In this document: positions 1,321 to 15,500 of the stretch, one piece after another | Layout of the letters: every line of letters begins with the position of its first letter | Numbering within the stretch: position 1 is the first letter of the stretch | IMG/VR virus record: IMGVR_UViG_3300028571_000011 | DNA: 64,000 nt | Direction: 5' to 3' (one strand) | DNA from: a virus | Lineage: Duplodnaviria > Heunggongvirae > Uroviricota > Caudoviricetes | Position numbers and translations under genes: made by a program | Notes under the pieces: generated by a model | What the model was told of the DNA's origin: nothing | The model's database searches: none | What the model saw: only the letters and a program-made list of their open reading frames with translations

Positions 1321-1763
1321 CGACAGAGTTCCGTAGGAAGATTGCTGGTCGTGATGTCGAGTCGATGACTCGATCAGACTTGGCTGAATTCAAGTTGGAG
1401 TTGGAGGCACAGCTTTCCCACCGCAAGTCTCTGCTGCTGCTTGGTGCGACAGCTGACGAGAAGGACGAGTACGAGTCTTGGCGGAACTCTGTCGTCTGCA
1501 TCATCAAGAACATCGACAAGGAGATGGTCAGGCGTCGTGGCATTTCTGTAGCGCAGAAACTGGCCGACCCCACAGCTGTTGAGACAACCAAGTCTCGAAC
1601 AGCCATTGCTCATCTGGCAATGATGATCATGGCTCAAGACAACGAATTCATGGAAGACTTCACACCACGTGAGCTTGAAGCAGCAGCCAGTAGTGCTATC
1701 TTCACAGCTACGATCTGCCACACAGAAGTGTGGCAAGTCCTCGACAAGGAGAAGAAACAGTGA
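1317..1763 (+). CDS. hypothetical protein
   Basis: ATG at 1317 overlaps the upstream stop (ATGA); 148 aa. Confidence 0.5.
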   Translation: MTTEFRRKIAGRDVESMTRSDLAEFKLELEAQLSHRKSLLLLGATADEKDEYESWRNSVVCIIKNIDKEMVRRRGISVAQKLADPTAVETTKSRTAIAHLAMMIMAQDNEFMEDFTPRELEAAASSAIFTATICHTEVWQVLDKEKKQ

Positions 1764-1814
1764 GTATCATCGACACCATCAAAGGAGCGTTCATGTCCAG
1801 CGAACGGACAGCGA

Positions 1815-2174
1815 GTGGTGCGCCAATGCCACTCGCCTTGTGACAAGAAGATCTTCAAGAAGGGGGTCACGGTGGCTGCTGTCTATGGGGCCAGTGAAGA
1901 CATCGAAGCTTGGGTGGCCGAACTTCGGCTGAAGACTGGGCTGCCTACGGACTGGCATTACGCTGGTGGTCGCGGTCAAGTCCTGATGCTCCTCAAGAAG
2001 GAGAAGGACCTCGTCAAGGTGAGGGAGGCAATGCCACAGATGCCTCGTGACGAGCGTACCAACTCGGACAAGATTGACGCCATGATGTCTCGTGGTCAGA
2101 GCGCGAGCTACGATGGCTGCCGAGTCACCGTCATGCGTGACTACTCAGCGTCACTCACAATAGAGGCCCTGTAA
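1815..2174 (+). CDS. hypothetical protein; possible toxin partner of the downstream MqsA-like gene
   Basis: GTG-start ORF of 119 aa; its stop overlaps the next start (TAATG). Confidence 0.35.
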   Translation: MVRQCHSPCDKKIFKKGVTVAAVYGASEDIEAWVAELRLKTGLPTDWHYAGGRGQVLMLLKKEKDLVKVREAMPQMPRDERTNSDKIDAMMSRGQSASYDGCRVTVMRDYSASLTIEAL

Positions 2175-2572
2175 TGAATTGTCCAGTCTGTGCCAGTGCG
2201 AATCTCACTACAGTAGTACAAGAGATCGATGTCAGTTGCCAATGCGGACCATTGGTCTCGTACAAGGGTGAGTTCGTAACGTGCCACAACTGCGGTGAAG
2301 TTGGTGACTTCTTTGGCCGTAATGACGCCGACATTGACGAGGCAATCCACAAATCAGAGACCATGCTGGTGAAGATCATTCTCGATGACCTTAAGAGTCG
2401 AGGAATCCATCCTCCAAGCTTTGAGAGAGCGTTGAGGCTTCGTCAGCGCAGCACGCAGATGTGGCTTGCTGGCAATCACACGCCGTCAGACCTCGCCCTG
2501 CTGCGAATGATCTGGTTCCGGCCAGAGCTATTGATACTGTCCGACAACGACTACTACGAGGCGTCGACATGA
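2174..2572 (+). CDS. MqsA-like antitoxin / XRE-family regulator (N-terminal CxxC..CxxC zinc ribbon + C-terminal HTH)
   Basis: 132 aa; CPVC...CHNCGE followed by an HTH ending RMIWFRPELL, same layout as E. coli MqsA (131 aa). Confidence 0.6.
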   Translation: MNCPVCASANLTTVVQEIDVSCQCGPLVSYKGEFVTCHNCGEVGDFFGRNDADIDEAIHKSETMLVKIILDDLKSRGIHPPSFERALRLRQRSTQMWLAGNHTPSDLALLRMIWFRPELLILSDNDYYEAST

Positions 2573-2778
2573 CATTCATTATGAAAAGCTCGAAAGAGCT
2601 TGAAGCCGAACTTGAGAAGCAGCGGAAGGAGGACAAGGCTGAGACCTTGCGCCTCAAGGCCCTGTGGGACAAGGAGTTGCGATTGGCATTACGTACCTTC
2701 GGTCTTGAGTTGCTTCAACTGATCTTCTTGCCTCCACTGATGTGGACTCATGAAAACCGTAGACCCAGAAGCCATTGA
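2569..2778 (+). CDS. small coiled-coil protein
   Basis: ATGA overlap with the upstream stop; charged heptad-like sequence. Confidence 0.4.
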   Translation: MTFIMKSSKELEAELEKQRKEDKAETLRLKALWDKELRLALRTFGLELLQLIFLPPLMWTHENRRPRSH

Positions 2779-2977
2779 TAGACTGCTGCGCGAAGAACTC
2801 GCCAAGCCTGAATCATTGAGACGACTTGGCGAATTCATGTCTATGGAGATTTCTGAGAGAATGGGGCGAGTCCCGAATGGTACTGCTCAAAGACTTCTGG
2901 GCACCGACTGGGAAGAGATCGAAGAGGCTCGGGGGATCGCCAACTCGGCCCTTGCTGAACAACAGGACAAGTCATGA
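2750..2977 (+). CDS. hypothetical protein
   Basis: ORF of 75 aa, tightly packed. Confidence 0.35.
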   Translation: MKTVDPEAIDRLLREELAKPESLRRLGEFMSMEISERMGRVPNGTAQRLLGTDWEEIEEARGIANSALAEQQDKS

Positions 2978-3402
2978 CGGACGTTCACACGGAGCACTGC
3001 TGTGCTCGGCATGGTTGCAAATACTCGTCTGAGGACTGCACAGTCACAACCGGCAAGGCTGCTCAGTCGTACCCTTGCGAGTACTGCACGTCGTGGAACT
3101 CAGGTTGGCCCACCAAGGCGGGACTGTACTGGTTCCTTGGCAACCTTCGACCGCATGATGATTCGCCACGACTCGAAGTCGTGAAGGCGTTCGAGCTACT
3201 CGGTCAAATGAAATTCGTGCTTGGTACTCTGTTCCTCGACTCGTCGATGCCCTCGACTTGGCTGTGGCTGCCACTCGCGACGCCGGATATGCCCTACAAC
3301 CTCTCCGCTGACGACCTGAAACATATGCGTGGTGCGGGGGCCTTCCTTGACAACGAACACATGAGGGGCCATGACTGGCGCATGAAGGACGAAGACTGGT
3401 GA
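2974..3402 (+). CDS. hypothetical Cys/His-rich protein
   Basis: ORF of 142 aa; ATGA overlap. Confidence 0.5.
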   Translation: MTDVHTEHCCARHGCKYSSEDCTVTTGKAAQSYPCEYCTSWNSGWPTKAGLYWFLGNLRPHDDSPRLEVVKAFELLGQMKFVLGTLFLDSSMPSTWLWLPLATPDMPYNLSADDLKHMRGAGAFLDNEHMRGHDWRMKDEDW

Positions 3403-3469
3403 CTGACGTTTGACAAACGAGTCGCGTGCGTCATAGTTGACGCTTGAGTAACTATCAAGCGAGGCAACT

Positions 3470-3814
3470 TTGATTCGTCTTTGGAAGGCCCAGATCGGAA
3501 AAGAAGTAACATACGTTGCCACGGTACTCGTGGTAGCTGAGGATGAAGAGCAAGCGTTGAAGCTTGCCAAGGCACTGGACGCTGAGGACTACAACGACCC
3601 GGACGAAGACAGTTGGGCTAATGTACCTGTTGTCGTCGAGACAGAAGATGACATACCAGAAGAATACATATACGAAGGTAGCAACGAAGTCGACGCTGTA
3701 CCGGAAGGTTTCCGGGGTGACAAGCTCGTATCCTTCTACCTGAAGGACCCAGAACAGATTGCCATCGACCTACACAACGCAGAGATGATGAAGAGACAGG
3801 GCGTACTACTATGA
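3470..3814 (+). CDS. acidic hypothetical protein
   Basis: TTG start; 114 aa; very acidic. Confidence 0.45.
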   Translation: MIRLWKAQIGKEVTYVATVLVVAEDEEQALKLAKALDAEDYNDPDEDSWANVPVVVETEDDIPEEYIYEGSNEVDAVPEGFRGDKLVSFYLKDPEQIAIDLHNAEMMKRQGVLL

Positions 3815-4182
3815 CAATCAGCTACAACGCAGACCTCCTCCAGTGGAATGGTACAGGCTCCGAAGACAACGCGATCACGATGAAGCGGCGCTTCGGTGGT
3901 CACCACGATGATGCTGGCGAGTCTTCTCCCACCGAGTGGGAGATTTACGTCGAGAGCGACGACGACGCAGCATCGGCCATCAAAGATCTTCCACGCGACT
4001 TCAAACGCGTGTTGCACTCAGGTAACACCGGCAAGCACTGGGCACGTCAGTGGTTGTTCCTCCCAGTCGATACGACACAGAAGGAAGCTCTGCACATCCT
4101 TGCTCTCATTGAGGGCAAAGAGCCCCGGCGTCTCCTCTACGCGCTGAAGGCACTCGAAGTTGCCATCACGAAGGAAGATTGA
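3811..4182 (+). CDS. hypothetical protein
   Basis: ATGA overlap; 123 aa. Confidence 0.5.
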   Translation: MTISYNADLLQWNGTGSEDNAITMKRRFGGHHDDAGESSPTEWEIYVESDDDAASAIKDLPRDFKRVLHSGNTGKHWARQWLFLPVDTTQKEALHILALIEGKEPRRLLYALKALEVAITKED

Positions 4183-4186
4183 GAGC

Positions 4187-4408
4187 ATGAAGCGACGAGA
4201 CTTCCTTCGAGGGCTGGCAGTTGCTGTGGCTGCTGTTTCCATCGGAAGCAGCACAGCTGTGGCTGCGCCAAAGCCGTGGGCAGACTGCTCCAGCTTTGAA
4301 AGACAATGCGAGACGACCTGTGCCAACAAATCATGTTGTCTCAAAACAGGTATATCCTCAAAGGATATGGTTGAGGCGGTGAAAAGTATGAAAGGGTTGA
4401 CTGCATGA
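4187..4408 (+). CDS. small secreted Cys-rich protein with a twin-arginine (Tat) signal peptide
   Basis: MKRRDFLRGLAVAVAAVSIGSSTAVAAP signal, then 6 Cys within 25 aa. Confidence 0.5.
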   Translation: MKRRDFLRGLAVAVAAVSIGSSTAVAAPKPWADCSSFERQCETTCANKSCCLKTGISSKDMVEAVKSMKGLTA

Positions 4409-4878
4409 AAGAAGTAACTGGAGACCTGATTACCCTCGCCAAGTCTGGCGAGTTCGATGTGATCGCACATGGTTGTAACTGCTTCTGCACCATGGGTGCA
4501 GGCATTGCTCGTCAGATTGCAAGGGAGTTCCCAGCAGCCAAGGACGTCGATGGCCGAACAGCCATTGGTGCCAAAGAGAAGCTCGGAACCGTCAGCTACG
4601 CCGAGTGGCGTCAGCCAGCTGGCTTCGGCTCCTTCAGTGTGGTCATCGCAAACTGCTACACGCAGTTCCGGTACGGCGGTGATGGTGACCTCGTTGACTA
4701 CGGTGCCGTGGAACGCTGCATGGCCAATCTGGCGAGCTTCCACCGTGGGAGGCGCATTGGCCTTCCCCGAATCGGAGCGGGGCTGGCTGGGGGCGACTGG
4801 ACGCGAATCAAGGCCATCATCGAAGCCACCCTCGACCCCCACTGCAAAGTCACCATCGTGAACTGGGATAAGGCATGA
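4405..4878 (+). CDS. macro-domain protein, TARG1/OARD1-like ADP-ribose hydrolase
   Basis: DVIAHGCNCFCTMGAGIA and LPRIGAGLAGGDW motifs align with TARG1 SLAHCISEDCRMGAGIA / MPRIGCGLDRLQW. Confidence 0.8.
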   Translation: MKEVTGDLITLAKSGEFDVIAHGCNCFCTMGAGIARQIAREFPAAKDVDGRTAIGAKEKLGTVSYAEWRQPAGFGSFSVVIANCYTQFRYGGDGDLVDYGAVERCMANLASFHRGRRIGLPRIGAGLAGGDWTRIKAIIEATLDPHCKVTIVNWDKA

Positions 4879-5285
4879 CAGCTGCCATCCTAGTCAGTGA
4901 TGTAGAGCCGGGTTGCTTCACGTTCGTAGAGGACGATGAGGAAGTGTTTGCACTCGATGGTTGGGTTGCGAGCAGCAACTCTTCGGTGTTCCCGTTACTG
5001 CTCGGAGAGTGGAAGAAGCCTTTCCACAAGCATATAGGTGAAGAAAAGCATCTGTGGTCGGTGTACATGGACGGGGGCGACACCCAGCGAGTGCCGCTGG
5101 CCTCTGCTCACGACCTCTTGCTTGAGCAAGCCCGTGTCATCGGTGCCACACGAATCGCATACAGGCAGCGGTGGGAGGAATCTGTCATCGATCGTTATAC
5201 GCCGGAAGGCGTACATGAGACAGGCGTCTACATGGATACGATAGTTACGCTTGTGCGTAAGCGACAAGCAATAGTTTCTGGCTGA
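4875..5285 (+). CDS. hypothetical protein
   Basis: ORF of 136 aa; ATGA overlap. Confidence 0.5.
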   Translation: MTAAILVSDVEPGCFTFVEDDEEVFALDGWVASSNSSVFPLLLGEWKKPFHKHIGEEKHLWSVYMDGGDTQRVPLASAHDLLLEQARVIGATRIAYRQRWEESVIDRYTPEGVHETGVYMDTIVTLVRKRQAIVSG

Positions 5286-5307
5286 ACAATAACATATAGG
5301 ATATGAA

Positions 5308-5853
5308 ATGACACTGATCAAAACTGCCCCTCATCGCTACAGCAGGTACCCGGACTACGTCCAATTCGCAATCGTTGATGACCCAGAGAAGAAGGCTGGT
5401 TGGGACATCTTGGAGTTGTTCACTGGCGACATCATCGAGACATTGTCGTCTGAAGCCATTGGTGTGGCGCCAGCCTCGGCTTCGGCTGGCTACATTCAGA
5501 GTGCCCAAGTGATGTACGGTAACAGAAGCGTTGTAGTCAGGCGCACGCAGTTCCTGATGGGAAGGCTGGAGACTGACGTTGTCGCTGAGTATGCAGCGTT
5601 CAAAACCAGTGCTGGTGATACTCAGGCTGCTCTTAGAGGGGAGCTACGGTCCACACAAGCTCGTGCAACCACCATTGAAGAGAACCTCAAGTACAGGGAA
5701 GAAGACCTGAAGACTGTAAACGAACTGCTTAAGGAATCTCAGGCCAAGTCTGCAGACTTGGCAGAGCAGCTTCGTCGCATTCGAACAGTCCTCGGTGAAA
5801 AGGCTGTCAATGAGGCCATGCTCGCTTCATCGAAGATCGTAATCAGTGATTAA
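5308..5853 (+). CDS. hypothetical protein (C-terminal coiled coil)
   Basis: ORF of 181 aa. Confidence 0.5.
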   Translation: MTLIKTAPHRYSRYPDYVQFAIVDDPEKKAGWDILELFTGDIIETLSSEAIGVAPASASAGYIQSAQVMYGNRSVVVRRTQFLMGRLETDVVAEYAAFKTSAGDTQAALRGELRSTQARATTIEENLKYREEDLKTVNELLKESQAKSADLAEQLRRIRTVLGEKAVNEAMLASSKIVISD

Positions 5854-5868
5854 GGTACTGGGTTGACT

Positions 5869-6363
5869 ATGAAGATCATCAAGTTCGAAACTCGGCCCTA
5901 CTGTCTTGAGTGTATCAACAACAACTCAGACAACCCAGATAGCAACGAGAGGGAGGAGGACTGCACTCACGAGAAGCCAACCGTAAAGCACGTCATGCTG
6001 CTACCCGGTTGCTGTGCCCTTTCAACTCAGGCATTGTACCCACGAGCCAGCGTTCGAATTGGTTGGGATTCTGATGGGAATCCCGGCGGTACCAAGTACC
6101 CGTACTGGTCGTTGCCAATAGAAGAGATGCGCAACCCCATCTGGGGTCGTGGAAAGATCAGCTTCGGTGACTTCCTCAAAGAGGAAGAAGGGATCAAGCA
6201 CTGTCCGTTCTGTGGCACCAAGCTCCCAGCGATTGTGCTCGAAGATTCCCCACCCTCGCCAATCGGCGCGTACGACGACTGTGGCCACTGTGAATGCGGT
6301 TGGCCACGTTCCTATGGCAAGTGCCCTTGCTGGCCAACCATCGCCCTATACAAGACGGAGTGA
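5869..6363 (+). CDS. Cys-rich hypothetical protein (putative zinc-binding)
   Basis: ORF 5863..6363; first ATG at 5869; CPFCG...CGHCECGW. Confidence 0.5.
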   Translation: MKIIKFETRPYCLECINNNSDNPDSNEREEDCTHEKPTVKHVMLLPGCCALSTQALYPRASVRIGWDSDGNPGGTKYPYWSLPIEEMRNPIWGRGKISFGDFLKEEEGIKHCPFCGTKLPAIVLEDSPPSPIGAYDDCGHCECGWPRSYGKCPCWPTIALYKTE

Positions 6364-6365
6364 CC

Positions 6366-6602
6366 ATGACGACTGAGCTAACCGATTGCACATGTACTGA
6401 CCACGCGAAGGAATGCCTGAAGAAGGTCCAAAGCGGTGCCGTCACACAGAAAGGACGCTTCGGTTTTGACCTTGAAGGAAACCAACTTTGCACCGTTGAC
6501 TCGTTTGGGTTTCGCGGAAGCTTCGCAGGAGAATGCGAAGCTTGCTACAAGCGCCAAGTAGACGGTTACAACAAAGCAATGGCTGGTACCTTCGATGACT
6601 GA
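6366..6602 (+). CDS. hypothetical protein
   Basis: ATG at 6366 inside the listed ORF 6294..6602. Confidence 0.4.
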   Translation: MTTELTDCTCTDHAKECLKKVQSGAVTQKGRFGFDLEGNQLCTVDSFGFRGSFAGECEACYKRQVDGYNKAMAGTFDD

Positions 6603-6741
6603 AATCAGACCAACCTGTCCGACGTGCGGCAACGCTATCTGGCGAACAACTGGTTGTCGTCCATGCCAGCTTGCAGCTGGTCATGTCGACGTCGAGCCCC
6701 TCAGTCATCATGGCGACATCAGTACAATCGGTGTGAGGTAA
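6595..6741 (+). CDS. small zinc-ribbon protein (CPTCG...CRPC)
   Basis: 48-aa ORF below the track cutoff; ATGA overlap. Confidence 0.3.
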   Translation: MTEIRPTCPTCGNAIWRTTGCRPCQLAAGHVDVEPLSHHGDISTIGVR

Positions 6742-6749
6742 AGCAGTGC

Positions 6750-6778
6750 TTGACTTGTGCTGAGTGATCTGCTACAAG
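6750..6778 (+). promoter_or_regulatory. conserved promoter cassette: -35 TTGACT (6750-6755), -10 TACAAG
   Basis: member of a TTGACT-N16/17-TA..G.-10 family; AAAGCAGTGC upstream. Confidence 0.45.
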
Positions 6779-6784
6779 TTGCGT

Positions 6785-6997
6785 ATGCCGATCAAGCCAA
6801 AGAGTCACGCGCAGGACCAACGCAGCCTTACCCGAAAGGCTGGCAAGTTCACGGCCATGGACATCTGCCCATGCTGCAAGAAGCCTCGTGCTCTGGAGCC
6901 TGCCTACACCGTTTCTGACGGTGGTCGGGTCCGTGATGACTTCGAGTTCGCTGGTGGTTACGTCTGCCTCAAATGCATCGCCGCCAACGCCGCCTGA
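6785..6997 (+). CDS. hypothetical Cys-containing protein
   Basis: ATG 8 nt after the promoter -10; 70 aa. Confidence 0.45.
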   Translation: MPIKPKSHAQDQRSLTRKAGKFTAMDICPCCKKPRALEPAYTVSDGGRVRDDFEFAGGYVCLKCIAANAA

Positions 6998-7018
6998 ACA
7001 GAAACCCAAGGAGTCAAC

Positions 7019-7315
7019 GTGAAAGACCTTCAGCGTTTCAAGGCCCTGTGCAAGGACCCCCGGATCGATCAGGTCAGCGACGAGCGTGAGAGCGCCTCGT
7101 TCCGCAAGGAGGACAACGGAGATGGGATCTGGTTGTACCTGATGCCCGGATGGACTGATCCCACCACCGAGACGCACTGCGTGCACGAGAGCAAGCTCTC
7201 ACAGCTGATCTTCTCCATGAAGAACCTCGAAGTTTGCGAATGCAAGGAGTGCTTGCAGTCCATCGCAGACCGCGCAGCTGCGAAGGCACGAGCAGTCAAC
7301 AAGGCAGCCGCATGA
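7019..7315 (+). CDS. hypothetical protein
   Basis: GTG start with an AAGGAG RBS; 98 aa. Confidence 0.45.
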   Translation: MKDLQRFKALCKDPRIDQVSDERESASFRKEDNGDGIWLYLMPGWTDPTTETHCVHESKLSQLIFSMKNLEVCECKECLQSIADRAAAKARAVNKAAA

Positions 7316-7809
7316 AGAACATGCCGAAGCAAGGGCAGGTGGCCTACTCCTGCCCCGGCTGTGGCAGGAAGTGCACACGGCACGGGATGCAGATCCTTCC
7401 ACACGACTCCGATCCTACGATCGACGAGGAGTGCGCTTGGTCTAACCTGAGGATCCCCCATCCGCTGCAGTTCTCCGAATGGCACGTCGACATCCAGAGC
7501 AAGTTCACCCGCTGGAAAGCCCTGCAGAAAGAGGAAAGCCAGCTGAAGCGCCACTCGCCGAAGGCGAAGCACAGAGTGAACTACTGCTGTGGTAAGATCA
7601 CCTTCCACACCGAGAAGGCGGCACTCGAAGCTGCAGACGAAGCTGGTCGTGACTTCTACTGCCAGATGTTCACCTACCAGTGCAAGAACAAGAACTGGCA
7701 CATGACCAGCCAGTGGCAACACCCGATCACCCGGTCGCTGGTCACCACTTCTATCTCCAGCGGAAGCAAGATAAAGATGAAGCTGATGGGCAGCTTCACC
7801 AATCACTGA
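7312..7809 (+). CDS. hypothetical Cys-rich protein
   Basis: ATG at 7312 overlaps the upstream stop; part of ORF 7234..7809. Confidence 0.5.
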   Translation: MKNMPKQGQVAYSCPGCGRKCTRHGMQILPHDSDPTIDEECAWSNLRIPHPLQFSEWHVDIQSKFTRWKALQKEESQLKRHSPKAKHRVNYCCGKITFHTEKAALEAADEAGRDFYCQMFTYQCKNKNWHMTSQWQHPITRSLVTTSISSGSKIKMKLMGSFTNH

Positions 7810-7845
7810 GAGGAGACACGCAGGTCTACGAACCAAGATGCTGGA

Positions 7846-8157
7846 ATGATGGCGGTGGCGCCATCGATGGCTGTGCTAACTGCCACAGGAAGCACCACTG
7901 GGATGAGAAGCAGCGGACTAAGGAAGGATCACCTCCGTGAGAGATCAGTTGACAACACCTTACCAGCGCGCTATGTACTGGTTACCGAACGGAGGCTTGC
8001 TGTGCTAAACACCAATGACATTACAAACACGCCAACCACGTCGGGGTCCGCCCGGACCAATGAAACCGTGAGAATGAGCGAAGACGCCCGTATGCCAGCC
8101 AATGGCAAAGATACAGCCATCCGCGCAGCGAAGCGCGAGGTCCGTTCAGACAACTGA
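7846..8157 (+). CDS. hypothetical protein
   Basis: ORF of 103 aa, followed by a GC hairpin. Confidence 0.3.
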   Translation: MMAVAPSMAVLTATGSTTGMRSSGLRKDHLRERSVDNTLPARYVLVTERRLAVLNTNDITNTPTTSGSARTNETVRMSEDARMPANGKDTAIRAAKREVRSDN

Positions 8158-8170
8158 ATCATCTCTCGGA

Positions 8171-8222
8171 CCGGCTTCACATGAGCCCCCTCCACCGAGA
8201 ACAAAGGTGAGAGGGGGCTTAA
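8171..8222 (+). terminator. possible terminator hairpin (GCCCCCTC...GAGGGGGC + TTAAAGTTT)
   Basis: 9-bp GC stem after the last CDS and before the tRNA array. Confidence 0.35.
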
Positions 8223-8257
8223 AGTTTCGGTTGACAGATCAGTTCGTTTAGTGGTAT

Positions 8258-8333
8258 GGGTTGTAGGCCGAAGAGTGGAAGCGCTACCCTGTCGAGGTAG
8301 ACCAAGCGGGTTCAACTCCCGTGCAGCCCGCCA
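8258..8333 (+). tRNA. tRNA-Asp(GTC)
   Basis: acceptor GGGTTGT/GCAGCCC; anticodon stem CTACC/GGTAG; loop CTGTCGA; T-loop TTCAACT; CCA encoded. Confidence 0.6.
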
Positions 8334-8358
8334 GTTCTCTCGTTAGAAATCTGATTTT

Positions 8359-8434
8359 GGGGCCTTAGCTCATTTGGAAGAGCGCGACCTTTGCAAGGTT
8401 GAGGTGATGGGATCGTAGCCCATAGGCTCCACCA
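8359..8434 (+). tRNA. tRNA-Ala(TGC)
   Basis: GGGGCCT...AGGCTCC ACCA; anticodon loop TTTGCAA. Confidence 0.85.
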
Positions 8435-8612
8435 TGTCAGATTGTCCGTTTAGTTCTTTGAAAACCGAATAGAAAACACACTTTTCCGGAGTGAAACTCC
8501 TCCGGAGTGTAATTGAATGAATGTAGGCAATCCCCATCGCCTATGTCGTTCATAGCGAACGTGATATATTCATCACGGTATCGGTGGGGCCGTGTTCGCA
8601 ACCCACCACATT

Positions 8613-8689
8613 CGGAATGTGGCGCAGCTTGGTAGCGCACTAGACTGGGGGTCTAGGGGTCGCAGGTTCAAATCCTGTCATTCCGACCA
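8613..8689 (+). tRNA. tRNA-Pro(GGG)
   Basis: acceptor CGGAATG/CATTCCG; anticodon loop CTGGGGG; T-loop TTCAAAT; CCA. Confidence 0.7.
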
Positions 8690-8790
8690 TATGTGGCTGA
8701 GCTGTGGTACCGGTATTCCAACTACCGGGCAATAGTGGACGTTGTTTGTTCAGTCGGCTTCGCAGTGCCGTGTCCATACTGCTTTCTTTT

Positions 8791-8865
8791 CGGAGTGTGG
8801 GTCATAGGTTGACCACTTGTTTTGGGTACAAGATCAAGGGAGTTCGAGTCTCTCCACTCCGACCA
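8791..8865 (+). tRNA. tRNA-Pro(TGG)
   Basis: acceptor CGGAGTG/CACTCCG; anticodon stem CTTGT/ACAAG; loop TTTGGGT. Confidence 0.8.
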
Positions 8866-8959
8866 GTCTAGTCGAAGGTACCTGCCCCTATCACGGCAGG
8901 ATAAAGCAGCCCCACCACTCAACGGAGGGACAGTGTCATCTGCTGGCTCAGATGAATGT

Positions 8960-9036
8960 GCGCCCGTAGTCTAGTTGGATCAGGCACTTGATTACGAATC
9001 AAGATCACGCAAGTTCGAGTCTTGCCGGGCGCACCA
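8960..9036 (+). tRNA. tRNA-Arg(ACG)
   Basis: GCGCCCG/CGGGCGC; anticodon loop TTACGAA; T-loop TTCGAGT; CCA. Confidence 0.8.
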
Positions 9037-9053
9037 GTTAGGAAAGATTGAAT

Positions 9054-9116
9054 GAGCCGAACGCAACTGAGGGTTACCTTTTTTGGAAACAACCCCTCAA
9101 CCGCAATCCCTTGCTC
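9054..9116 (+). ncRNA. Y RNA-like element Y1 (Ro-binding-stem mimic: 5' GAGCCGAA / 3' CTTGCTC, internal hairpin)
   Basis: terminal helix GAGC/GCUC + bulged C + GA/UU as in Y RNAs; internal TGAGGG/CCCTCA stem; follows tRNA-Arg. Confidence 0.55.
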
Positions 9117-9127
9117 ATTTATATTGT

Positions 9128-9203
9128 GGATCGGTAGCTCAGTTGGTAGAGCACTCGCCTCTTAAGCGATAGGTCGAGGGTTCGAATCCCTCCCGGTCCA
9201 CCA
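9128..9203 (+). tRNA. tRNA-Lys(CTT)
   Basis: GGATCGG/CCGGTCC; anticodon loop CTCTTAA; T-loop TTCGAAT; CCA. Confidence 0.8.
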
Positions 9204-9328
9204 CAAGTGATTCTCATTTCAGGCAATGTCTAGAATGAGAATCACATCAGAGATAGAGAAACGACAACACGAAAGGAGAACGATATGATTTGGTACAAAC
9301 GCACCGACGCCAGAGGCTCTTCTCTCGC

Positions 9329-9401
9329 GGGTCGGTAGCTCAGCTGGTAGAGCATCGAGTTTTTACCTCGTAGGTCGAGGGTTCGAATCCCTCCCGGCCC
9401 C
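9329..9401 (+). tRNA. tRNA-Lys(TTT)
   Basis: GGGTCGG/CCGGCCC; anticodon loop TTTTTAC; no encoded CCA. Confidence 0.75.
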
Positions 9402-9418
9402 CTTCAAAGAGAAGACGA

Positions 9419-9697
9419 ATGACAGTGTACATCGTTGGCAGCGACGAATTCGAAGTGACAGAGTCTGAAGTGGAGGCCCTTGTGAAGGGCTTCGGCAACG
9501 GAGACGTCGCAGCCAACCACTGCTTCCTCCAAGAGAGGAACAGGAAGCTCACAGCACCAATGGTGACCAAAGGAGTGACCAAGGTGATTCTTCAGGCCGT
9601 AGCAGACGGCACAGCAGTCATTCTCGATACACAAGAGAAGTACCGAGATTGCTTGCTTGAGAAACAGAATGCGCTGAATGCGCCGTCATCGTCTTAG
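9419..9697 (+). CDS. hypothetical protein inside the tRNA array
   Basis: ORF of 92 aa; 3' end overlaps tRNA-Thr by about 16 nt. Confidence 0.4.
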   Translation: MTVYIVGSDEFEVTESEVEALVKGFGNGDVAANHCFLQERNRKLTAPMVTKGVTKVILQAVADGTAVILDTQEKYRDCLLEKQNALNAPSSS

Positions 9698-9756
9698 TGG
9701 AAGGACATCCCCTTGGTAAGGGGAAAACCCGAGTTCGATTCTCGGTGACGGCTCCA
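9682..9756 (+). tRNA. tRNA-Thr(GGT)
   Basis: GCCGTCA/TGACGGC; anticodon stem TCCCC/GGGGA; loop TTGGTAA; CCA. Confidence 0.75.
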
Positions 9757-9760
9757 CTCC

Positions 9761-9780
9761 GGTTCGTTCGTTCGTTCGTT
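9761..9780 (+). repeat. (GTTC)n microsatellite spacer
   Basis: GGTTCGTTCGTTCGTTCGTT between two tRNAs. Confidence 0.6.
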
Positions 9781-9783
9781 TGT

Positions 9784-9859
<76 letters not shown>

Positions 9860-9872
9860 TACAGTACCCCAA

Positions 9873-9948
9873 GTCGCTGTAGTTCAGTTGGTAGAATGGG
9901 TTCCTCATAAGGACACGGTCGGAAGTTCGAATCTTCCCAGCGGCACCA
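9873..9948 (+). tRNA. tRNA-Met(CAT) copy 1
   Basis: GTCGCTG/CAGCGGC; anticodon loop CTCATAA; T-loop TTCGAAT; CCA. Confidence 0.75.
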
Positions 9949-10010
9949 GAAAGAGATGGCAGCGGAAGTGAACCTACGTAAAATGTGAAACCGAACCCGC
10001 ACTCTGTCAT

Positions 10011-10703
10011 ATGAAGACAGAAGCACACCAAGAAGCTATTCGCCTGCGAAGAGACGAACGTAAGTCGTTCAATGAAATCACAGACCTACTGGGGGTCTCA
10101 AAAGGAACTTTGAGTGGTTGGTTGAAAGATTACCCTCTGTCTCCTGAAGAGTCAGCGGCTAGAAGGTCATCCGCAGGCCGGTTGCTAAATCAGCGACGCA
10201 GACAGAAGTTTGAAGAAGTGGGCTATCCATTCGATATTCCTCAAGTAACAAAAAATCCTCGTCAAACCATAAAGCGGGCACCGAAACAGGTTGGCGAGAT
10301 CAGTGAGGCGATTGTAGCCGCCCGTCTGATGAAACTTGGTTTCAACCTTCTCAAGCCGATAGGCGACAGCCTGCGATACGACTTGATGATTGATTTCGAA
10401 GACTCTTTCTACCGCGTTCAGGTTAAAACAGCTAGGGTCGAGAATGGTGTCATAGACTTCAGTACGGTATCTTCTCAGGCTCATCGTGGTAAGGGTAAGC
10501 AATCCTACAAAGGACAGATTGAATGGTTCGCAGCCTGTGTGCAAGAAACGGAAGAAGTGTACATGGTACACATTGACAACCCTATCGCTAAGGGGCAAGA
10601 AGTAACCCTCCGTATATCACGTTCCATGACGACACCAACGGCGGAAAATAGAATCGCTATTAAATACATCTTGAATGATGTATGGACTCCAATTAATCAT
10701 TGA
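10011..10703 (+). CDS. putative homing endonuclease: N-terminal HTH + C-terminal PD-(D/E)XK-like nuclease domain
   Basis: ITDLLGVSKGTLSGWL HTH; then GE.SE...YDLMID...RVQVKT motifs; sits in the tRNA array. Confidence 0.5.
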   Translation: MKTEAHQEAIRLRRDERKSFNEITDLLGVSKGTLSGWLKDYPLSPEESAARRSSAGRLLNQRRRQKFEEVGYPFDIPQVTKNPRQTIKRAPKQVGEISEAIVAARLMKLGFNLLKPIGDSLRYDLMIDFEDSFYRVQVKTARVENGVIDFSTVSSQAHRGKGKQSYKGQIEWFAACVQETEEVYMVHIDNPIAKGQEVTLRISRSMTTPTAENRIAIKYILNDVWTPINH

Positions 10704-10776
10704 CTGGTAGCTCAGCCGGTAGAGCAAATTCCTGTTAAGAATGAGGTCGTGGGATCGTAGCCCACCCAGTCAGCCA
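10701..10776 (+). tRNA. tRNA-Asn(GTT)
   Basis: TGACTGG/CCAGTCA; anticodon loop CTGTTAA; CCA. Confidence 0.8.
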
Positions 10777-10784
10777 CAACATAC

Positions 10785-10839
10785 GAGCCGAACGCGACTG
10801 AGGATTATTTTTGCACAAACCCTCAATCACAATCACTCG
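10785..10839 (+). ncRNA. Y RNA-like element Y2 (degenerate 3' strand)
   Basis: GAGCCGAACGCGACTGAGG...CCTCAATCACAATCACTCG; follows tRNA-Asn directly. Confidence 0.4.
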
Positions 10840-10851
10840 TTTGTTTACCTA

Positions 10852-10886
10852 AATGTCCTCAGCGCGTCTCCGTAGGGAGAAGGACA
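10852..10886 (+). repeat. hairpin element A: AATGTCCTCAGCGCGTC...GAAGGACAC (nested palindrome TCTCCGTAGGGAGA)
   Basis: second copy with the same flanks at 18358..18410. Confidence 0.5.
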
Positions 10887-10906
10887 CGTCCAGCAATGGA
10901 CCTCGC

Positions 10907-10982
10907 GGGCATGTACTCAACTGGTTAAGAGGTCACCCTGATAAGGTGATAGATGTAAGTTCGAATCTTGCCATGCCCACCA
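10907..10982 (+). tRNA. tRNA-Ile(GAT)
   Basis: GGGCATG/CATGCCC; anticodon stem TCACC/GGTGA; loop CTGATAA; CCA. Confidence 0.75.
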
Positions 10983-11083
10983 CTCCCTGCCCATTGGTTG
11001 CAGCAGAGTTAGTTCCTCTACGTGGTAGGGGGAAGTCTCTGGAAGGTTCTAAAAGACCGACAATGAATGTTACGGTAGCAAAC

Positions 11084-11164
11084 GTAGCTGAAGACCGGCG
11101 CCGGTCCAAACAGCTGAAGGATGTTATACGTCCCGTCAGGACTCTATACGTCCAGCTACCACCA
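11084..11164 (+). pseudogene. tRNA-like sequence with a non-canonical T-loop (possible tRNA pseudogene)
   Basis: acceptor GTAGCTG/CAGCTAC + CACCA; D-stem GACC/GGTC; no TTCGA T-loop. Confidence 0.3.
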
Positions 11165-11165
11165 T

Positions 11166-11248
11166 GCGGGCTTCGTCTAGCGGCCATGACACCTCTTTTA
11201 CACGGAGGCAAAAAAAGATCGGGGGTTCGAGTCCCTCAGCCCGTACCA
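11166..11248 (+). tRNA. tRNA-Val(TAC), unusual 12-nt variable loop
   Basis: GCGGGCT/AGCCCGT; anticodon stem CCTCT/GGAGG; loop TTTACAC; variable CAAAAAAAGATC; CCA. Confidence 0.5.
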
Positions 11249-11272
11249 TTCAGCTCAGAATGTCAGGTCCAC

Positions 11273-11349
11273 GCGCCAGTAGCTCAATTGGATGAGCAGC
11301 ACGCTTCGAACGTGCCGGTATGCAGGTTCGAGCCCTGTCTGGCGCACCA
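11273..11349 (+). tRNA. tRNA-Arg(TCG)
   Basis: GCGCCAG/CTGGCGC; anticodon stem GCACG/CGTGC; loop CTTCGAA; CCA. Confidence 0.8.
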
Positions 11350-11434
11350 CTCAACTCTTATCCTCGAAAGGAGGAAATGCCATGCAAGCAGAAGACGATG
11401 AAGAAATGACAACCGAATCAGCCGCTGATTGTAT

Positions 11435-11509
11435 GACCATATCCTCCAATGGTTAAGAGCAGCCCCTTTCAAGGGAAGAATCAGAGTTCGATCCTCTGTA
11501 TGGTCACCA
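11435..11509 (+). tRNA. tRNA-Glu(TTC)
   Basis: GACCATA/TATGGTC; loop CTTTCAA; T-arm CAGAG/CTCTG; weak anticodon stem. Confidence 0.55.
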
Positions 11510-11510
11510 C

Positions 11511-11585
11511 GTCCCTATCGTCTAGCGGTCAGGACACTTGCTTCTCAAGCAGGGAACGAGATTTCGATTATCTCTGGGGACACCA
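11511..11585 (+). tRNA. tRNA-Glu(CTC)
   Basis: GTCCCTA/TGGGGAC; anticodon stem CTTGC/GCAGG; loop TTCTCAA; CCA. Confidence 0.75.
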
Positions 11586-11600
11586 GCACAACATTTAAGT

Positions 11601-11726
11601 GAGCCGAAAAGATTGCGTTACCATTCCAAGGCGAAGGTCGTGAGGTTCAACTCCACACCAGCCGCTCCATCATGCGGCTGTAGCTCAGCGTAGAGCGTCG
11701 TAAACCCGCAATCTAGTTACTTGCTC
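11601..11726 (+). ncRNA. YrlA-like Y RNA candidate Y3: Ro-binding-stem flanks (GAGCCGAA...CTTGCTC) enclosing a circularly permuted tRNA-like domain
   Basis: T-loop-like GGTTCAACTCC + acceptor 3' CAGCCGC-TCCA come before acceptor 5' GCGGCTG + D-arm TAGCTCAGCGTAGAGC; about 260 nt upstream of rsr. Confidence 0.55.
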
Positions 11727-11747
11727 ACTTGCCTTTTTAGAGTTTCC

Positions 11748-11814
11748 GAGCCGAATCCCAATGGATTACCTTTCTGCCTATGGCTTAAAATCACCCATTG
11801 GGGATCACTTGCTC
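11748..11814 (+). ncRNA. Y RNA-like element Y4
   Basis: GAGCCGAATCCCAATGG...CCATTGGGGATCACTTGCTC; internal stem shows compensatory changes relative to Y1. Confidence 0.55.
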
Positions 11815-11826
11815 GGACCGTTCGTT

Positions 11827-11902
11827 GCCGACATAGCTCAGTTGGTAGAGCAATTGTTTCGTAAGCAGTAGGTCCTCGGTTCGAATCCGAGTGTCGGCTC
11901 CA
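11827..11902 (+). tRNA. tRNA-Thr(CGT)
   Basis: GCCGACA/TGTCGGC; anticodon loop TTCGTAA; CCA. Confidence 0.8.
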
Positions 11903-11950
11903 CAGTTTAAGCTTGCTACTTGTCTTTGTCCGTGGTAATAGGTCGGTTAA

Positions 11951-11975
11951 CTTGCTCACAGGTGTGAGCCGAAAG
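11951..11975 (+). promoter_or_regulatory. hairpin in the rsr 5' leader made of the two Ro-binding half-motifs in inverted order (CTTGCTCACA-GGTG-TGAGCCGAAAG)
   Basis: lies directly upstream of the rsr ATG; could fold into a Y-stem mimic. Confidence 0.4.
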
Positions 11976-11984
11976 AAGGAATAC

Positions 11985-13730: not shown

Positions 13731-13735
13731 CTTCG

Positions 13736-13775
13736 CTGACAGGATCAGCTAAAACTGGTCCTGTCAGGTTTGCGT
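13736..13775 (+). terminator. hairpin after rsr (CTGACAGGA...TCCTGTCAG + GTTTGCG)
   Basis: 9-bp stem 6 nt after the stop; weak U tract. Confidence 0.4.
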
Positions 13776-13798
13776 GAAAACCGAATATGAAACACTTC

Positions 13799-13867
13799 GT
13801 GAGACGGTGCCGCCGTGCTTGTCACCAAGATTCGTCTTGGCAGACTGCTTGAATAACGGCACCGTCT
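13799..13867 (+). ncRNA. structured element: 12-bp perfect stem (GAGACGGTGCCG/CGGCACCGTCTC) with a nested hairpin
   Basis: perfect inverted repeat with an internal CCAAGA-TTCG-TCTTGG hairpin. Confidence 0.35.
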
Positions 13868-13879
13868 CCAGATTTTGGA

Positions 13880-14010
13880 GAGCCGAAGAAGAAACGTTAA
13901 CAAAACAGCATGTCCTTGGTTCGAACCCAAGCATTGTGAACGCAAGTTCCTTTGTAGCTCAGCTGGAAGAGCAGCCGTCCACAAAACACGTTTCCTCACA
14001 ACTTGTTCTC
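13880..14010 (+). ncRNA. Y RNA-like element Y5 with internal T-arm-like (CTTGG TTCGAAC CCAAG) and D-arm-like (TAGCTCAGCTGGAAGAGC) modules in permuted order
   Basis: flanks GAGCCGAAG ... CTTGTTCTC; T-arm comes before D-arm as in Y3. Confidence 0.45.
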
Positions 14011-14039
14011 CTTAGCTTTTGACGAACCGAAGATTTGTA

Positions 14040-14092
14040 GGTTATCTTTTTGGAAGGAGTGGTCGCTGGTTCGAGTCCAGCCCTCCCCACCA
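14040..14092 (+). ncRNA. orphan tRNA 3' half (T-arm GCTGG TTCGAGT CCAGC + acceptor CCTCCCC-A-CCA)
   Basis: no complementary 5' acceptor upstream; the GGGGAGG partner lies downstream of Y6. Confidence 0.45.
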
Positions 14093-14095
14093 TAC

Positions 14096-14159
14096 GAGCC
14101 GAACGCAACCGCTGGGTTACCCTTGAAATGTACCCCCCAGCATCCGCAATCCCTTGCTC
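14096..14159 (+). ncRNA. Y RNA-like element Y6 (between the permuted tRNA halves)
   Basis: GAGCCGAACGCAACCGCTGGG...CCCAGCATCCGCAATCCCTTGCTC; compensatory GCTGGG/CCCAGC stem. Confidence 0.55.
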
Positions 14160-14167
14160 GTTCCCTT

Positions 14168-14200
14168 GGGGAGGTAGCTCAGTTGGTAGAGCACTAAACG
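14168..14200 (+). ncRNA. orphan tRNA 5' half (acceptor GGGGAGG + D-arm TAGCTCAGTTGGTAGAGC)
   Basis: perfect 7/7 complement to the 3' half at 14082..14088; no downstream T-arm. Confidence 0.45.
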
Positions 14201-14235
14201 TCTACGGTCATACCTTGTTCGTCATTCTTTTCTGA

Positions 14236-14336
14236 ACGCCCTTAGCTCAGTGGTAGAGCGGCACCTCGACAAGGTGAAGGTCACTGGTTCAATCCCAGTA
14301 GGGCGGTCACTGGTTCAATCCCAGTAGGGCGTACCA
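14236..14336 (+). tRNA. tRNA-Val(GAC) carrying a 26-nt tandem duplication of the T-arm/acceptor 3' segment
   Basis: ACGCCCT...anticodon loop TCGACAA...; GTCACTGGTTCAATCCCAGTAGGGCG occurs twice; second copy ends ...AGGGCGT-A-CCA. Confidence 0.6.
14280..14331 (+). repeat. tandem duplication (2 x 26 nt) within tRNA-Val(GAC)
   Basis: exact direct repeat at 14280..14305 and 14306..14331. Confidence 0.8.
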
Positions 14337-14343
14337 GTTCGTT

Positions 14344-14415
14344 GCGCTCGTAGCTCAGCGGTAGAGCATTCGGCTCATAACCGACCGTGCGTGGGTTCAA
14401 ATCCCTCCGGGCGCC
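14344..14415 (+). tRNA. tRNA-Met(CAT) copy 2
   Basis: GCGCTCG/CGGGCGC; anticodon loop CTCATAA; T-loop TTCAAAT. Confidence 0.7.
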
Positions 14416-15494: not shown

Positions 15495-15500
15495 TAGCAA

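What the first reader, a model, noticed from the sequence alone, without database searches (positions are those of the whole stretch)
4405..4878. TARG1/OARD1-like macro domain, candidate counter-defence ADP-ribose hydrolase
The motifs HGCNCFCTMGAGIA and LPRIGAGLAGGDW align closely with the catalytic regions of TARG1 (HCISEDCRMGAGIA; MPRIGCGLDRLQW) and with DarG-type macro domains. A phage-encoded hydrolase of this kind could reverse ADP-ribosylation of DNA or protein by host DarT-like or other ART-based defences.
Basis: partly seen in the sequence, partly recalled or inferred. Interest (0 to 1): 0.6.

Follow-up and report, generated by a model that had tools for sequence, protein, structure and literature searches.

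The report
Phage macrodomain, T4 Tk.4/AdfM type
This gene in a large uncultured phage encodes a common stand-alone macrodomain enzyme that most likely strips ADP-ribose off phage DNA to undo a bacterial DarT-type defence; phage T4 has a relative with this role, so the gene is a new member of a known family.

Summary
The ORF at 4405..4878 (+) is real. It encodes 157 aa, both quoted motifs are present, and it is under purifying selection (dN/dS 0.13). It is a macrodomain: AlphaFold2 pLDDT is 88.6, and the best fold matches are TARG1, DarG, BT1257, Poa1p and SCO6735.

The TARG1 catalytic pair is missing. Gln87 sits where TARG1 K84 and DarG K80 sit, and Ala128 sits where TARG1 D125 sits. This is not a dead enzyme. 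Streptomyces SCO6735 has the same Gln (Gln85), needs it for activity, and hydrolyses thymidine-linked ADP-ribose on DNA. Asn25 is kept in 151 of 151 and Gln87 in 150 of 151 diverse family members.

The protein is 36% identical over its full length to T4 Tk.4 (E 5e-29). A 2025 preprint named Tk.4 AdfM because deleting it makes T4 sensitive to DarTG2. PhiKZ gp104, also called AdfM, is a more distant Lys-type relative.

The family is very large: 2832 phage records, at least 536 bacterial species genomes and 6355 clusters at 50% identity.

The window also encodes a phage ART-PolyVal ADP-ribosyltransferase, which leaves a writer/eraser rival open. This is a new member of a known kind and of low interest.

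The parts
4405..4878 (+). Complete ORF (157 aa plus stop) encoding a single-domain macrodomain protein of the Gln type (SCO6735/BT1257/T4 Tk.4-like)
   Evidence: ORF listing and sequence; phrog_335 5.6e-54; PDB sequence and profile hits; AF2 pLDDT 88.6; Foldseek; dN/dS 0.13
4468..4509 (+). Motif HGCNCFCTMGAGIA (aa 22-35): first ADP-ribose-binding loop. It contains Asn25, the equivalent of the conserved active-site Asn (SCO6735 Asn27, DarG Asn22)
   Evidence: Alignments. N25 in 151/151, G33 in 150/151 and H22 in 140/151 sequences (query plus 150 cluster representatives). Role of the Asn from PMC9411070 and PMC13309987
4651..4665 (+). Motif NCYTQ (aa 83-87). Gln87 occupies the position of the catalytic Lys of TARG1 (K84), DarG (K80) and PhiKZ AdfM (K78), and matches Gln85 of SCO6735 and the Gln of BT1257 and T4 Tk.4
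   Evidence: HMM alignments to DarG, BT1257 and SCO6735; MAFFT alignment A2. N83 in 150/151, Y85 in 151/151 and Q87 in 150/151. Gln85 is essential in SCO6735 (PMC9411070)
4762..4800 (+). Motif LPRIGAGLAGGDW (aa 120-132): second, Gly-rich phosphate-binding loop. Ala128 is at the position of TARG1 Asp125
   Evidence: P121 in 151/151, G124 in 149/151, G126 in 147/151, G130 in 148/151; position 128 is A in 120 and G in 28

Best explanation
The gene encodes a catalytically competent, stand-alone macrodomain ADP-ribosyl glycohydrolase of the Gln type. This is the SCO6735/BT1257 subclass of the ALC1/TARG1-like class and the same subfamily as phage T4 Tk.4 (AdfM).

Proposed mechanism: the two Gly-rich loops (aa 30-35 and 121-130) hold the ADP-ribose diphosphate. 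Asn25 and Gln87 position the distal ribose and a water network. As proposed for SCO6735, an activated water rather than a Lys nucleophile cleaves the N-glycosidic bond between ADP-ribose and thymine N3 in single-stranded DNA.

Proposed role: during infection the enzyme erases the ADP-ribose that a host DarT2-type toxin puts on phage DNA, so replication can go on. It acts as an orphan antitoxin that works on the product of the toxin rather than on the toxin itself.

Shown here: the ORF, the fold, class membership, the residue equivalences, their near-invariance, purifying selection, the phage context and homology to Tk.4. Inferred: hydrolase activity, DNA-thymidine specificity and the anti-DarTG2 role in this phage.
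For: The macro fold is predicted with high confidence. Structural matches are to TARG1, DarG, BT1257, Poa1p and SCO6735. By sequence profile the closest solved proteins are BT1257 (3.7e-18) and SCO6735 (5.4e-15), ahead of DarG and TARG1.

Gln87 aligns with SCO6735 Gln85 and Asn25 with its Asn27. Both residues are functionally required in SCO6735, which hydrolyses DarT-made ADPr-thymidine and rescues cells from DarT (PMC9411070; PMC12879935). N25, N83, Y85 and Q87 are invariant or nearly so across 150 representatives that are no more than about 50% identical to one another.

T4 Tk.4 is a full-length homologue (36% identity, E 5e-29, same three motifs). It is the single T4 gene needed for growth on a DarTG2 host. 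A second phage macrodomain, PhiKZ gp104/AdfM, removes DarT2 ADP-ribose from DNA in vitro.

All three proteins fall in phrog_335. The weak best hits in NCBIfam and PADLOC are both DarG. dN/dS is 0.13.
Against: No experiment exists on this protein, and the host and its defence repertoire are unknown. The evidence for T4 Tk.4 is genetic only and comes from a preprint. Identity to Tk.4 is only 36% and to SCO6735 about 28%.

SCO6735 also hydrolyses protein-linked ADP-ribose, so DNA specificity cannot be read from the sequence. The DNA-contacting Lys34 of SCO6735 is Ala here (alignment), although Lys89 aligns with Arg89.

The same window encodes the phage's own ADP-ribosyltransferase (ART-PolyVal, 28763..30130), a possible alternative partner. 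Bacterial homologues are not linked to DarT and have no conserved neighbour, so the family as a whole is not dedicated to DarT.
Confidence: 0.6

Rival explanations
1. The macrodomain is the eraser for the phage's own ADP-ribosylation system. It reverses or limits protein (or nucleic-acid) mono-ADP-ribosylation made by the phage ART-PolyVal enzyme encoded about 24 kb downstream. That would give temporal control or protect phage proteins from self-modification, rather than countering a host toxin.
For: ART-PolyVal domain at 28763..30130 (+), E 7.6e-25, above the Pfam cut-off. A SLOG/YAcAr protein lies next to it at 30856..31491. SCO6735 also de-ADP-ribosylates proteins. T4, which has Tk.4, also carries ARTs (Alt, ModA, ModB; established knowledge). 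ARTs and macrodomains are both enriched in large myoviruses (PMC9503650).
Against: The two genes are 24 kb apart and not in one operon. In T4, tk.4 was non-essential without DarTG2 and was the single hit with it. The Glu/Asp-ester chemistry of TARG1 uses the Lys/Asp pair that is absent here. I did not test whether the two genes co-occur across phages.
Confidence: 0.15
2. It is a small-molecule ADP-ribose-derivative hydrolase. It could be the 'phosphatase' of the database annotations (ADP-ribose-1''-phosphate phosphatase, Poa1p-like) clearing by-products of RNA repair, an O-acetyl-ADP-ribose deacetylase, or an enzyme that destroys ADPr-derived immune signals such as those of Thoeris.
For: GenBank and PHROG label the family 'phosphatase', and the T4 note reads 'A1pp phosphatase motif'. 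Poa1p is among the fold matches with the highest TM-scores (TMq 0.69-0.72). The window is rich in RNA functions: 27 tRNAs, a tmRNA, Ro60/TROVE and an RNA ligase. One bacterial homologue (56% identity) sits beside Thoeris genes and a SIR2 NADase.
Against: The sequence match to Poa1p covers only the N-terminal half (profile positions 17-81). No Tpt1/KptA, the enzyme that would generate Appr>p, turned up among about 50 ORFs scanned. The 'phosphatase' label is a legacy domain name, not a tested function. The macro-SIR2 pairing was 1 of 81 loci. The closest characterised relatives act on ADPr-DNA.
Confidence: 0.12
3. It counters ADP-ribosylation of RNA (for example CmdT-type mRNA modification, or ADPr-capped RNA ends) rather than of DNA.
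For: TARG1-class macrodomains remove ADP-ribose from phosphorylated nucleic-acid ends (established knowledge). The RNA-centred gene neighbourhood fits.
Against: There is no specific evidence. No homologue has been shown to act this way. The genetic and biochemical precedents are for thymidine-ADPr in DNA.
Confidence: 0.06
4. It is a non-catalytic ADP-ribose reader or sponge, because the catalytic Lys and Asp of TARG1 are missing.
For: K84 is replaced by Q87 and D125 by A128.
Against: The same substitutions occur in SCO6735, which is highly active and needs the Gln. Near-invariance of N25, N83, Y85 and Q87 over deep divergence is typical of an active site.
Confidence: 0.04

Closest known systems
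Phage T4 Tk.4 (NP_049723; named AdfM in bioRxiv 10.1101/2025.11.20.689424)
   Same: It is phage-encoded, single-domain and of similar size (155 aa against 157). Identity is 36% end to end (E 5e-29). The motifs match: HGCNCF-TMG-G-A, N-YTQF and PRIGAG---G-W. It has the same Gln at the catalytic-Lys position and belongs to the same PHROG (phrog_335).
   Different: It comes from a different phage lineage with no shared synteny: T4 has tk.4 between tk.3 and vs, whereas here the gene lies between unknown small ORFs upstream of a tRNA array. The loop after the Gln is shorter in Tk.4. The anti-DarTG2 role is shown genetically for Tk.4 only.
Streptomyces coelicolor SCO6735 (PDB 5E3B) and Bacteroides BT1257 (PDB 2FG1/2AFC)
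   Same: These are the closest solved structures by sequence. They are Gln-type: they have Gln85 and Asn27 equivalents and the PRIG-GLAGG-W loop, and they lack the TARG1 Lys and Asp. SCO6735 hydrolyses ADPr-thymidine DNA.
   Different: They are chromosomal bacterial proteins; SCO6735 is DNA-damage inducible. Identity is about 26-28%. Their first loop reads GGWGKG (with a DNA-contacting Lys34) where this protein reads TMGAGIA. SCO6735 has a slightly longer mobile loop.
DarG2 antitoxin macrodomain (T. aquaticus 5M31/5M3E, M. tuberculosis 5M3I)
   Same: Same fold and class. The active-site Asn is conserved. The weak best hits in NCBIfam and PADLOC are both DarG.
   Different: DarG has a catalytic Lys80 (Gln here), a C-terminal DarT-binding domain (absent here) and an adjacent darT gene (absent here). 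The NCBIfam DarG score is 28 bits against a 250-bit cut-off.
Chimallivirus AdfM (PhiKZ gp104; PMC13309987)
   Same: It is a phage-encoded stand-alone macrodomain in phrog_335. It has been shown to remove DarT2 ADP-ribose from DNA.
   Different: Identity is only 20% (E 3e-4). It is Lys-type (PTKDNW, K78) and is imported into a phage nucleus. I looked for no chimallin or other nucleus marker, and none appeared among the ORFs scanned.
Human TARG1/OARD1 (PDB 4J5Q/4J5S)
   Same: It is the top Foldseek match (E 1.8e-8, TM about 0.66-0.73).
   Different: Neither member of the catalytic pair Lys84/Asp125 is conserved (Gln87, Ala128). TARG1 has Ser35 where this protein has Asn25. Identity is about 22-26%.

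Membership tests
Macrodomain superfamily (Pfam PF01661) | Three-layer alpha/beta/alpha macro fold | tested here: met
   AF2 mean pLDDT 88.6, pTM 0.86. There are 210 PDB matches at E<=1e-3, and the listed best matches are almost all macrodomains.
Macrodomain superfamily (Pfam PF01661) | Score above Pfam's gathering threshold | tested here: inconclusive
   20.8 bits against a cut-off of 22 for the single sequence. Most close homologues carry a precomputed PF01661 hit.
Macrodomain superfamily (Pfam PF01661) | Two Gly-rich ADP-ribose/phosphate-binding loops | tested here: met
   The loops are TMGAGIA (aa 29-35) and PRIGAGLAGG (aa 121-130). G33, P121, G124, G126 and G130 are kept in 147-151 of 151 sequences.
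TARG1/OARD1 | Catalytic Lys84 | tested here: not met
   Gln87 is at this position.
TARG1/OARD1 | Catalytic Asp125 | tested here: not met
   Ala128 is at this position. Across the family it is Ala or Gly.
DarG2 antitoxin | Catalytic Lys80 in the PTKKHW motif | tested here: not met
   The profile alignment puts 'naytQf' against 'nfpTKk'.
DarG2 antitoxin | C-terminal DarT-binding domain and full-length model score | tested here: not met
   The protein is a 157-aa single domain. The NCBIfam DarG equivalog scores 28.3 bits against a 250-bit cut-off.
DarG2 antitoxin | Adjacent darT toxin gene | tested here: not met
   The flanking ORFs have no ART or other Pfam match. The only ART found is ART-PolyVal, 24 kb away.
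SCO6735/BT1257-type (Gln-type) ALC1-like macrodomain | Gln at the catalytic-Lys position (SCO6735 Gln85) | tested here: met
   Q87, kept in 150/151 sequences.
SCO6735/BT1257-type (Gln-type) ALC1-like macrodomain | Conserved active-site Asn (Asn27) and loop Gly (Gly128) | tested here: met
   N25 is kept in 151/151. The glycines of the GAGLAGG loop are conserved.
SCO6735/BT1257-type (Gln-type) ALC1-like macrodomain | Closest solved relatives by sequence | tested here: met
   BT1257 3.7e-18 and SCO6735 5.4e-15 rank ahead of DarG, TARG1 and Poa1p.
SCO6735/BT1257-type (Gln-type) ALC1-like macrodomain | Hydrolysis of thymidine-linked ADP-ribose on ssDNA | not testable with these tools
   Needs a biochemical assay.
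Phage AdfM, T4 Tk.4 type | Full-length homology to Tk.4 with shared motifs | tested here: met
   36% identity over 155 aa, E 5e-29. Same PHROG.
Phage AdfM, T4 Tk.4 type | Encoded by a phage | tested here: met
   The window has a 27-tRNA array and a tmRNA, HNH and PD-(D/E)XK endonuclease genes, phage-family proteins such as phrog_2426, and 33% identity to proteins of Klebsiella and Salmonella myoviruses of about 157 kb. No bacterial housekeeping gene was seen.
Phage AdfM, T4 Tk.4 type | Protects the phage against DarTG2 | not testable with these tools
   Needs plaque assays. The host is unknown.
Poa1p-type ADP-ribose-1''-phosphate phosphatase | Full-length sequence relationship and a pathway partner (Tpt1/KptA) that generates the substrate | tested here: not met
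   Only profile positions 17-81 align to Poa1p. No Tpt1/KptA turned up among about 50 window ORFs scanned with Pfam. ORFs shorter than about 120 aa were mostly not scanned.

The most novel reading that the evidence does not exclude
The Gln-type phage macrodomain may not be (only) an anti-DarT2 enzyme. It could work with the phage's own ART-PolyVal transferase and the neighbouring SLOG protein as a phage-encoded ADP-ribose writer/eraser/reader circuit. Alternatively, it could destroy ADPr-derived immune messengers. One 56%-identical bacterial homologue is translationally coupled to a defence-type SIR2 NADase next to a Thoeris system, which hints that the family can pair with NAD-consuming effectors other than DarT.
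Probability: 0.12. Interest if true: 0.6.

Novelty: new member of a known kind. Interest (0 to 1): 0.2.

Why it matters
If the inference holds, this uncultured large phage carries an AdfM-type orphan antitoxin. That would imply its unknown host, or hosts in its environment, use DarT2-like DNA ADP-ribosylation as a defence. It would also extend the Gln-type (SCO6735-like) chemistry to phage counter-defence well outside T4-like phages. In practical terms it corrects the legacy 'phosphatase' annotation that thousands of phage records carry. It does not open a new question: phage macrodomains are common, and their anti-DarTG2 role has been reported for T4 Tk.4 and PhiKZ gp104.

Tried and rejected
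1. Exact-sequence contig look-ups for three large window proteins found nothing, probably because the called genes use other start codons. I annotated the window with five Pfam batches instead.

2. I looked for a conserved partner gene around 81 homologues, 80 from bacterial species genomes plus the metagenome contig L008. ORFs within 3.5 kb were clustered by BLASTP. The largest neighbour cluster is in only 8 of 81 loci and is not an ART. The macro-SIR2 pair seen in L008 did not recur. A fixed toxin-antitoxin pairing for this subfamily is therefore rejected.

3. A TARG1-type Lys/Asp mechanism and a DarG-type Lys mechanism are both rejected by alignment.

4. Membership of the chimallivirus AdfM type is rejected: 20% identity, and that type has Lys.

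5. The 'phosphatase'/RNA-repair reading found no Tpt1/KptA or NADAR among the ORFs scanned, and only a partial Poa1p alignment.

6. The promoter/terminator scan of 1500..8500 gave counts no higher than shuffled sequence. Rfam found only tRNAs and the tmRNA, with no regulatory RNA near the gene.

7. Megablast of the first 12 kb against phage genomes matched only tRNA genes, so no close cultured relative exists.

8. One paper search failed on a two-character term.

Full report
**Observation.** The window holds an ATG-to-TGA ORF at exactly 4405..4878 on the + strand, encoding 157 aa. The two quoted motifs are there: HGCNCFCTMGAGIA at aa 22-35 and LPRIGAGLAGGDW at aa 120-132. The start codon overlaps the stop of a 73-aa upstream ORF (ATGA) and the stop overlaps the start of a 136-aa downstream ORF. 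The gene therefore sits in a dense co-directional string of small genes. The identical protein is encoded on five metagenome contigs. A 92%-identical copy lies in the same gene order in a related contig. Between these two copies there are 28 synonymous and 14 non-synonymous differences, giving dN/dS 0.13. This is a real gene under selection.

**What it is.**
- Against Pfam, the single sequence hits Macro (PF01661) at 20.8 bits, just below the 22-bit cut-off.
- It matches phrog_335 ('phosphatase') at 5.6e-54.
- A profile of 43 homologues finds, among PDB chains: BT1257 (3.7e-18), SCO6735 (5.4e-15), M. tuberculosis DarG (2e-10), T. aquaticus DarG (1.1e-8), TARG1 (3.7e-8) and Poa1p (3.7e-7, N-terminal half only).
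- An AlphaFold2 model has mean pLDDT 88.6 and pTM 0.86.
- Foldseek returns TARG1, DarG, BT1257, Poa1p and SCO6735 at probability 1.00 with TM about 0.63-0.72.
- Among viral models it returns many phage macrodomains, including 'tk.4' of Acinetobacter phage 133.
- NCBIfam and PADLOC give only weak DarG hits (28 and 27 bits; the NCBIfam cut-off is 250).

The protein is a single-domain macrodomain of the ALC1/TARG1-like class.

**Active site.** I aligned the window protein with T4 Tk.4, BT1257, SCO6735, TARG1, two DarG macrodomains and PhiKZ gp104. The HMM alignments agree with this alignment.
- Gln87 occupies the position of TARG1 Lys84, DarG Lys80 and PhiKZ Lys78.
- Ala128 occupies the position of TARG1 Asp125.
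- Asn25 occupies the position of the conserved active-site Asn (SCO6735 Asn27, DarG Asn22), where TARG1 has Ser.

However, BT1257, SCO6735 and T4 Tk.4 have the same Gln. For SCO6735, published work shows three things: Gln85 is essential; the enzyme lacks the TARG1 and DarG catalytic residues; and it nevertheless removes DarT-made ADP-ribose from thymidine more efficiently than DarG or TARG1 and rescues cells from DarT (PMC9411070; independently PMC12879935). In 150 representatives of clusters at 50% identity plus the query, N25 is kept in 151/151, N83 in 150/151, Y85 in 151/151 and Q87 in 150/151, and the loop glycines in 147-150 of 151. That pattern fits an active site, not a decayed one.

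**Relatives with known roles.** T4 Tk.4, fetched from NC_000866, is 36% identical over the full length (E 5e-29) and has the same three motifs. A 2025 preprint found tk.4 to be the single T4 gene depleted on a DarTG2-expressing host. A clean knockout sensitised T4, and the authors named the gene adfM (10.1101/2025.11.20.689424). Independently, the chimallivirus macrodomain PhiKZ gp104 was also named AdfM. It removes DarT2 ADP-ribose from DNA in vitro and protects the phage (PMC13309987). That protein is Lys-type and only 20% identical to the window protein. All three fall in phrog_335.

**How common it is.**
- tblastn finds the family in 2832 of 50,697 phage records, usually annotated 'phosphatase' after the old A1pp domain name.
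- The protein database holds 3957 clusters at 90% identity with E<=1e-5.
- The exhaustive search finds 6355 clusters at 50% identity with E<=1e-3.
- At least 536 bacterial species genomes encode a relative, at 45-55% identity among the 80 kept.
- A published survey found macrodomains in 56% of jumbo phages and 41% of myoviruses (PMC9503650).

**Context.**
- The window carries 27 tRNA genes and a tmRNA.
- It also carries homing-type HNH and PD-(D/E)XK endonucleases, a Ro60/TROVE protein, an RNA ligase, a DHHA1 protein and an SPFH protein, among many ORFs without matches.
- An 861-aa vWA protein is 33% identical to proteins of Klebsiella and Salmonella myoviruses of about 157 kb.
- Megablast finds no close cultured relative. 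This is an uncultured large phage with an unknown host.
- Relevant to function, the window encodes its own ADP-ribosyltransferase (ART-PolyVal, 28763..30130, E 7.6e-25) and an adjacent SLOG/YAcAr protein (30856..31491).
- No DarT, NADAR or Tpt1/KptA was found among about 50 ORFs scanned.

**Bacterial homologues.** Around 81 homologue loci, 80 from bacterial species genomes plus L008, I found no conserved neighbour. The largest neighbour cluster is in 8 loci and is not an ART. One metagenomic homologue (P0011, 56% identity) overlaps by 4 bp a 462-aa SIR2 protein that matches defence-type SIR2 models (PADLOC Aga_SIR2, 2.7e-41). It lies next to Thoeris ThsA-Macro/ThsB-TIR genes. This pairing did not recur.

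**Interpretation.** The best-supported reading (confidence about 0.6) is an AdfM-like, SCO6735-type DNA de-ADP-ribosylase that undoes DarT2-type modification of phage DNA. Shown here are the fold, class, residue equivalences, conservation, selection, phage origin and homology to Tk.4. Inferred are the activity, the substrate and the role in this phage. The rivals are:
- an eraser for the phage's own ART (0.15);
- a small-molecule ADPr-derivative hydrolase, which includes the legacy 'phosphatase' reading (0.12);
- an RNA-ADPr hydrolase (0.06);
- a non-catalytic binder (0.04).

**Verdict.** This is a new member of a known and very common kind, so interest is low (0.2).

Noticed in passing
window 28763..30130 (+): A 455-aa ORF with an ART-PolyVal ADP-ribosyltransferase domain (E 7.6e-25) and a weak YunG-like N-terminal match. 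It has few and only partial relatives in sequenced phages (9 records, at most 39% coverage). It is a phage-encoded ADP-ribose 'writer' in the same window as the macrodomain 'eraser'.
   Followed up: partly
window 30856..31491 (-): A 211-aa ORF with a YAcAr/YspA-type SLOG domain (E 8.5e-17; phrog_289). This domain class is predicted to bind nucleotide- or ADPr-derived ligands. It lies next to the ART gene.
   Followed up: no
window 8258..28743 (+): Large tRNA array: ARAGORN finds 27 tRNAs and Rfam adds weak candidates at 8258..8330 and 17245..17319. HNH (27728..28486, 17772..18356) and PD-(D/E)XK (10011..10703) endonuclease genes are interspersed. A full-length tmRNA lies at 14847..15262 (Rfam 137 bits; tag peptide GQKQSANDNIEGASFRMAA).
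   Followed up: partly
window 11985..13730 (+): A 581-aa Ro60 orthologue (TROVE 3.3e-38 plus Ro60 vWA 5.2e-55) embedded in the tRNA region. No Y-RNA-like family reached the Rfam gathering score, so a partner RNA, if any, is unrecognised.
   Followed up: partly
window 4187..4408 (+): A 73-aa Cys-rich ORF directly upstream of the macrodomain gene and overlapping it (ATGA). It has a twin-arginine (TAT) signal peptide (MKRRDFLRGLAVAVAAVSIGSSTAVAAP; Pfam TAT_signal 1.5e-4, just under the cut-off). It is conserved in the related contig L007 (9777..10004). A phage-encoded protein predicted to be exported, of unknown function.
   Followed up: no
window 58936..60135 (+) and 61238..62104 (+): An RNA ligase (PF09414, 4.8e-23) with a PHA02142 OB-fold, followed by a DHHA1-domain protein. 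With Ro60, the tRNAs and the tmRNA, this gives the window an RNA repair/quality-control theme.
   Followed up: no
window 50850..51338 (+), 49653..50279 (+), 43987..44457 (+): ORFs with strong matches to domains of unknown function: DUF1643 (8.9e-45), DUF4419 (1e-17) and DUF3307 (8.2e-9).
   Followed up: no
L008 6001..7841 (metagenome contig ERZ25039459 contig_87918): A bacterial homologue of the macrodomain (P0011, 56% identity) overlaps by 4 bp a 462-aa SIR2 protein (PADLOC Aga_SIR2, 2.7e-41). It lies immediately after ThsA-Macro/ThsB-TIR Thoeris genes in a defence island. This may be a macro-SIR2 two-gene module, but it did not recur in the other 80 loci examined.
   Followed up: partly
window 23086..25671 (-): An 861-aa vWA-domain protein matching phrog_2426 at 1.3e-165. 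It is 33% identical to hypothetical proteins of Klebsiella and Salmonella myoviruses of about 157 kb, which is the best clue found to the phage's distant relatives.
   Followed up: partly
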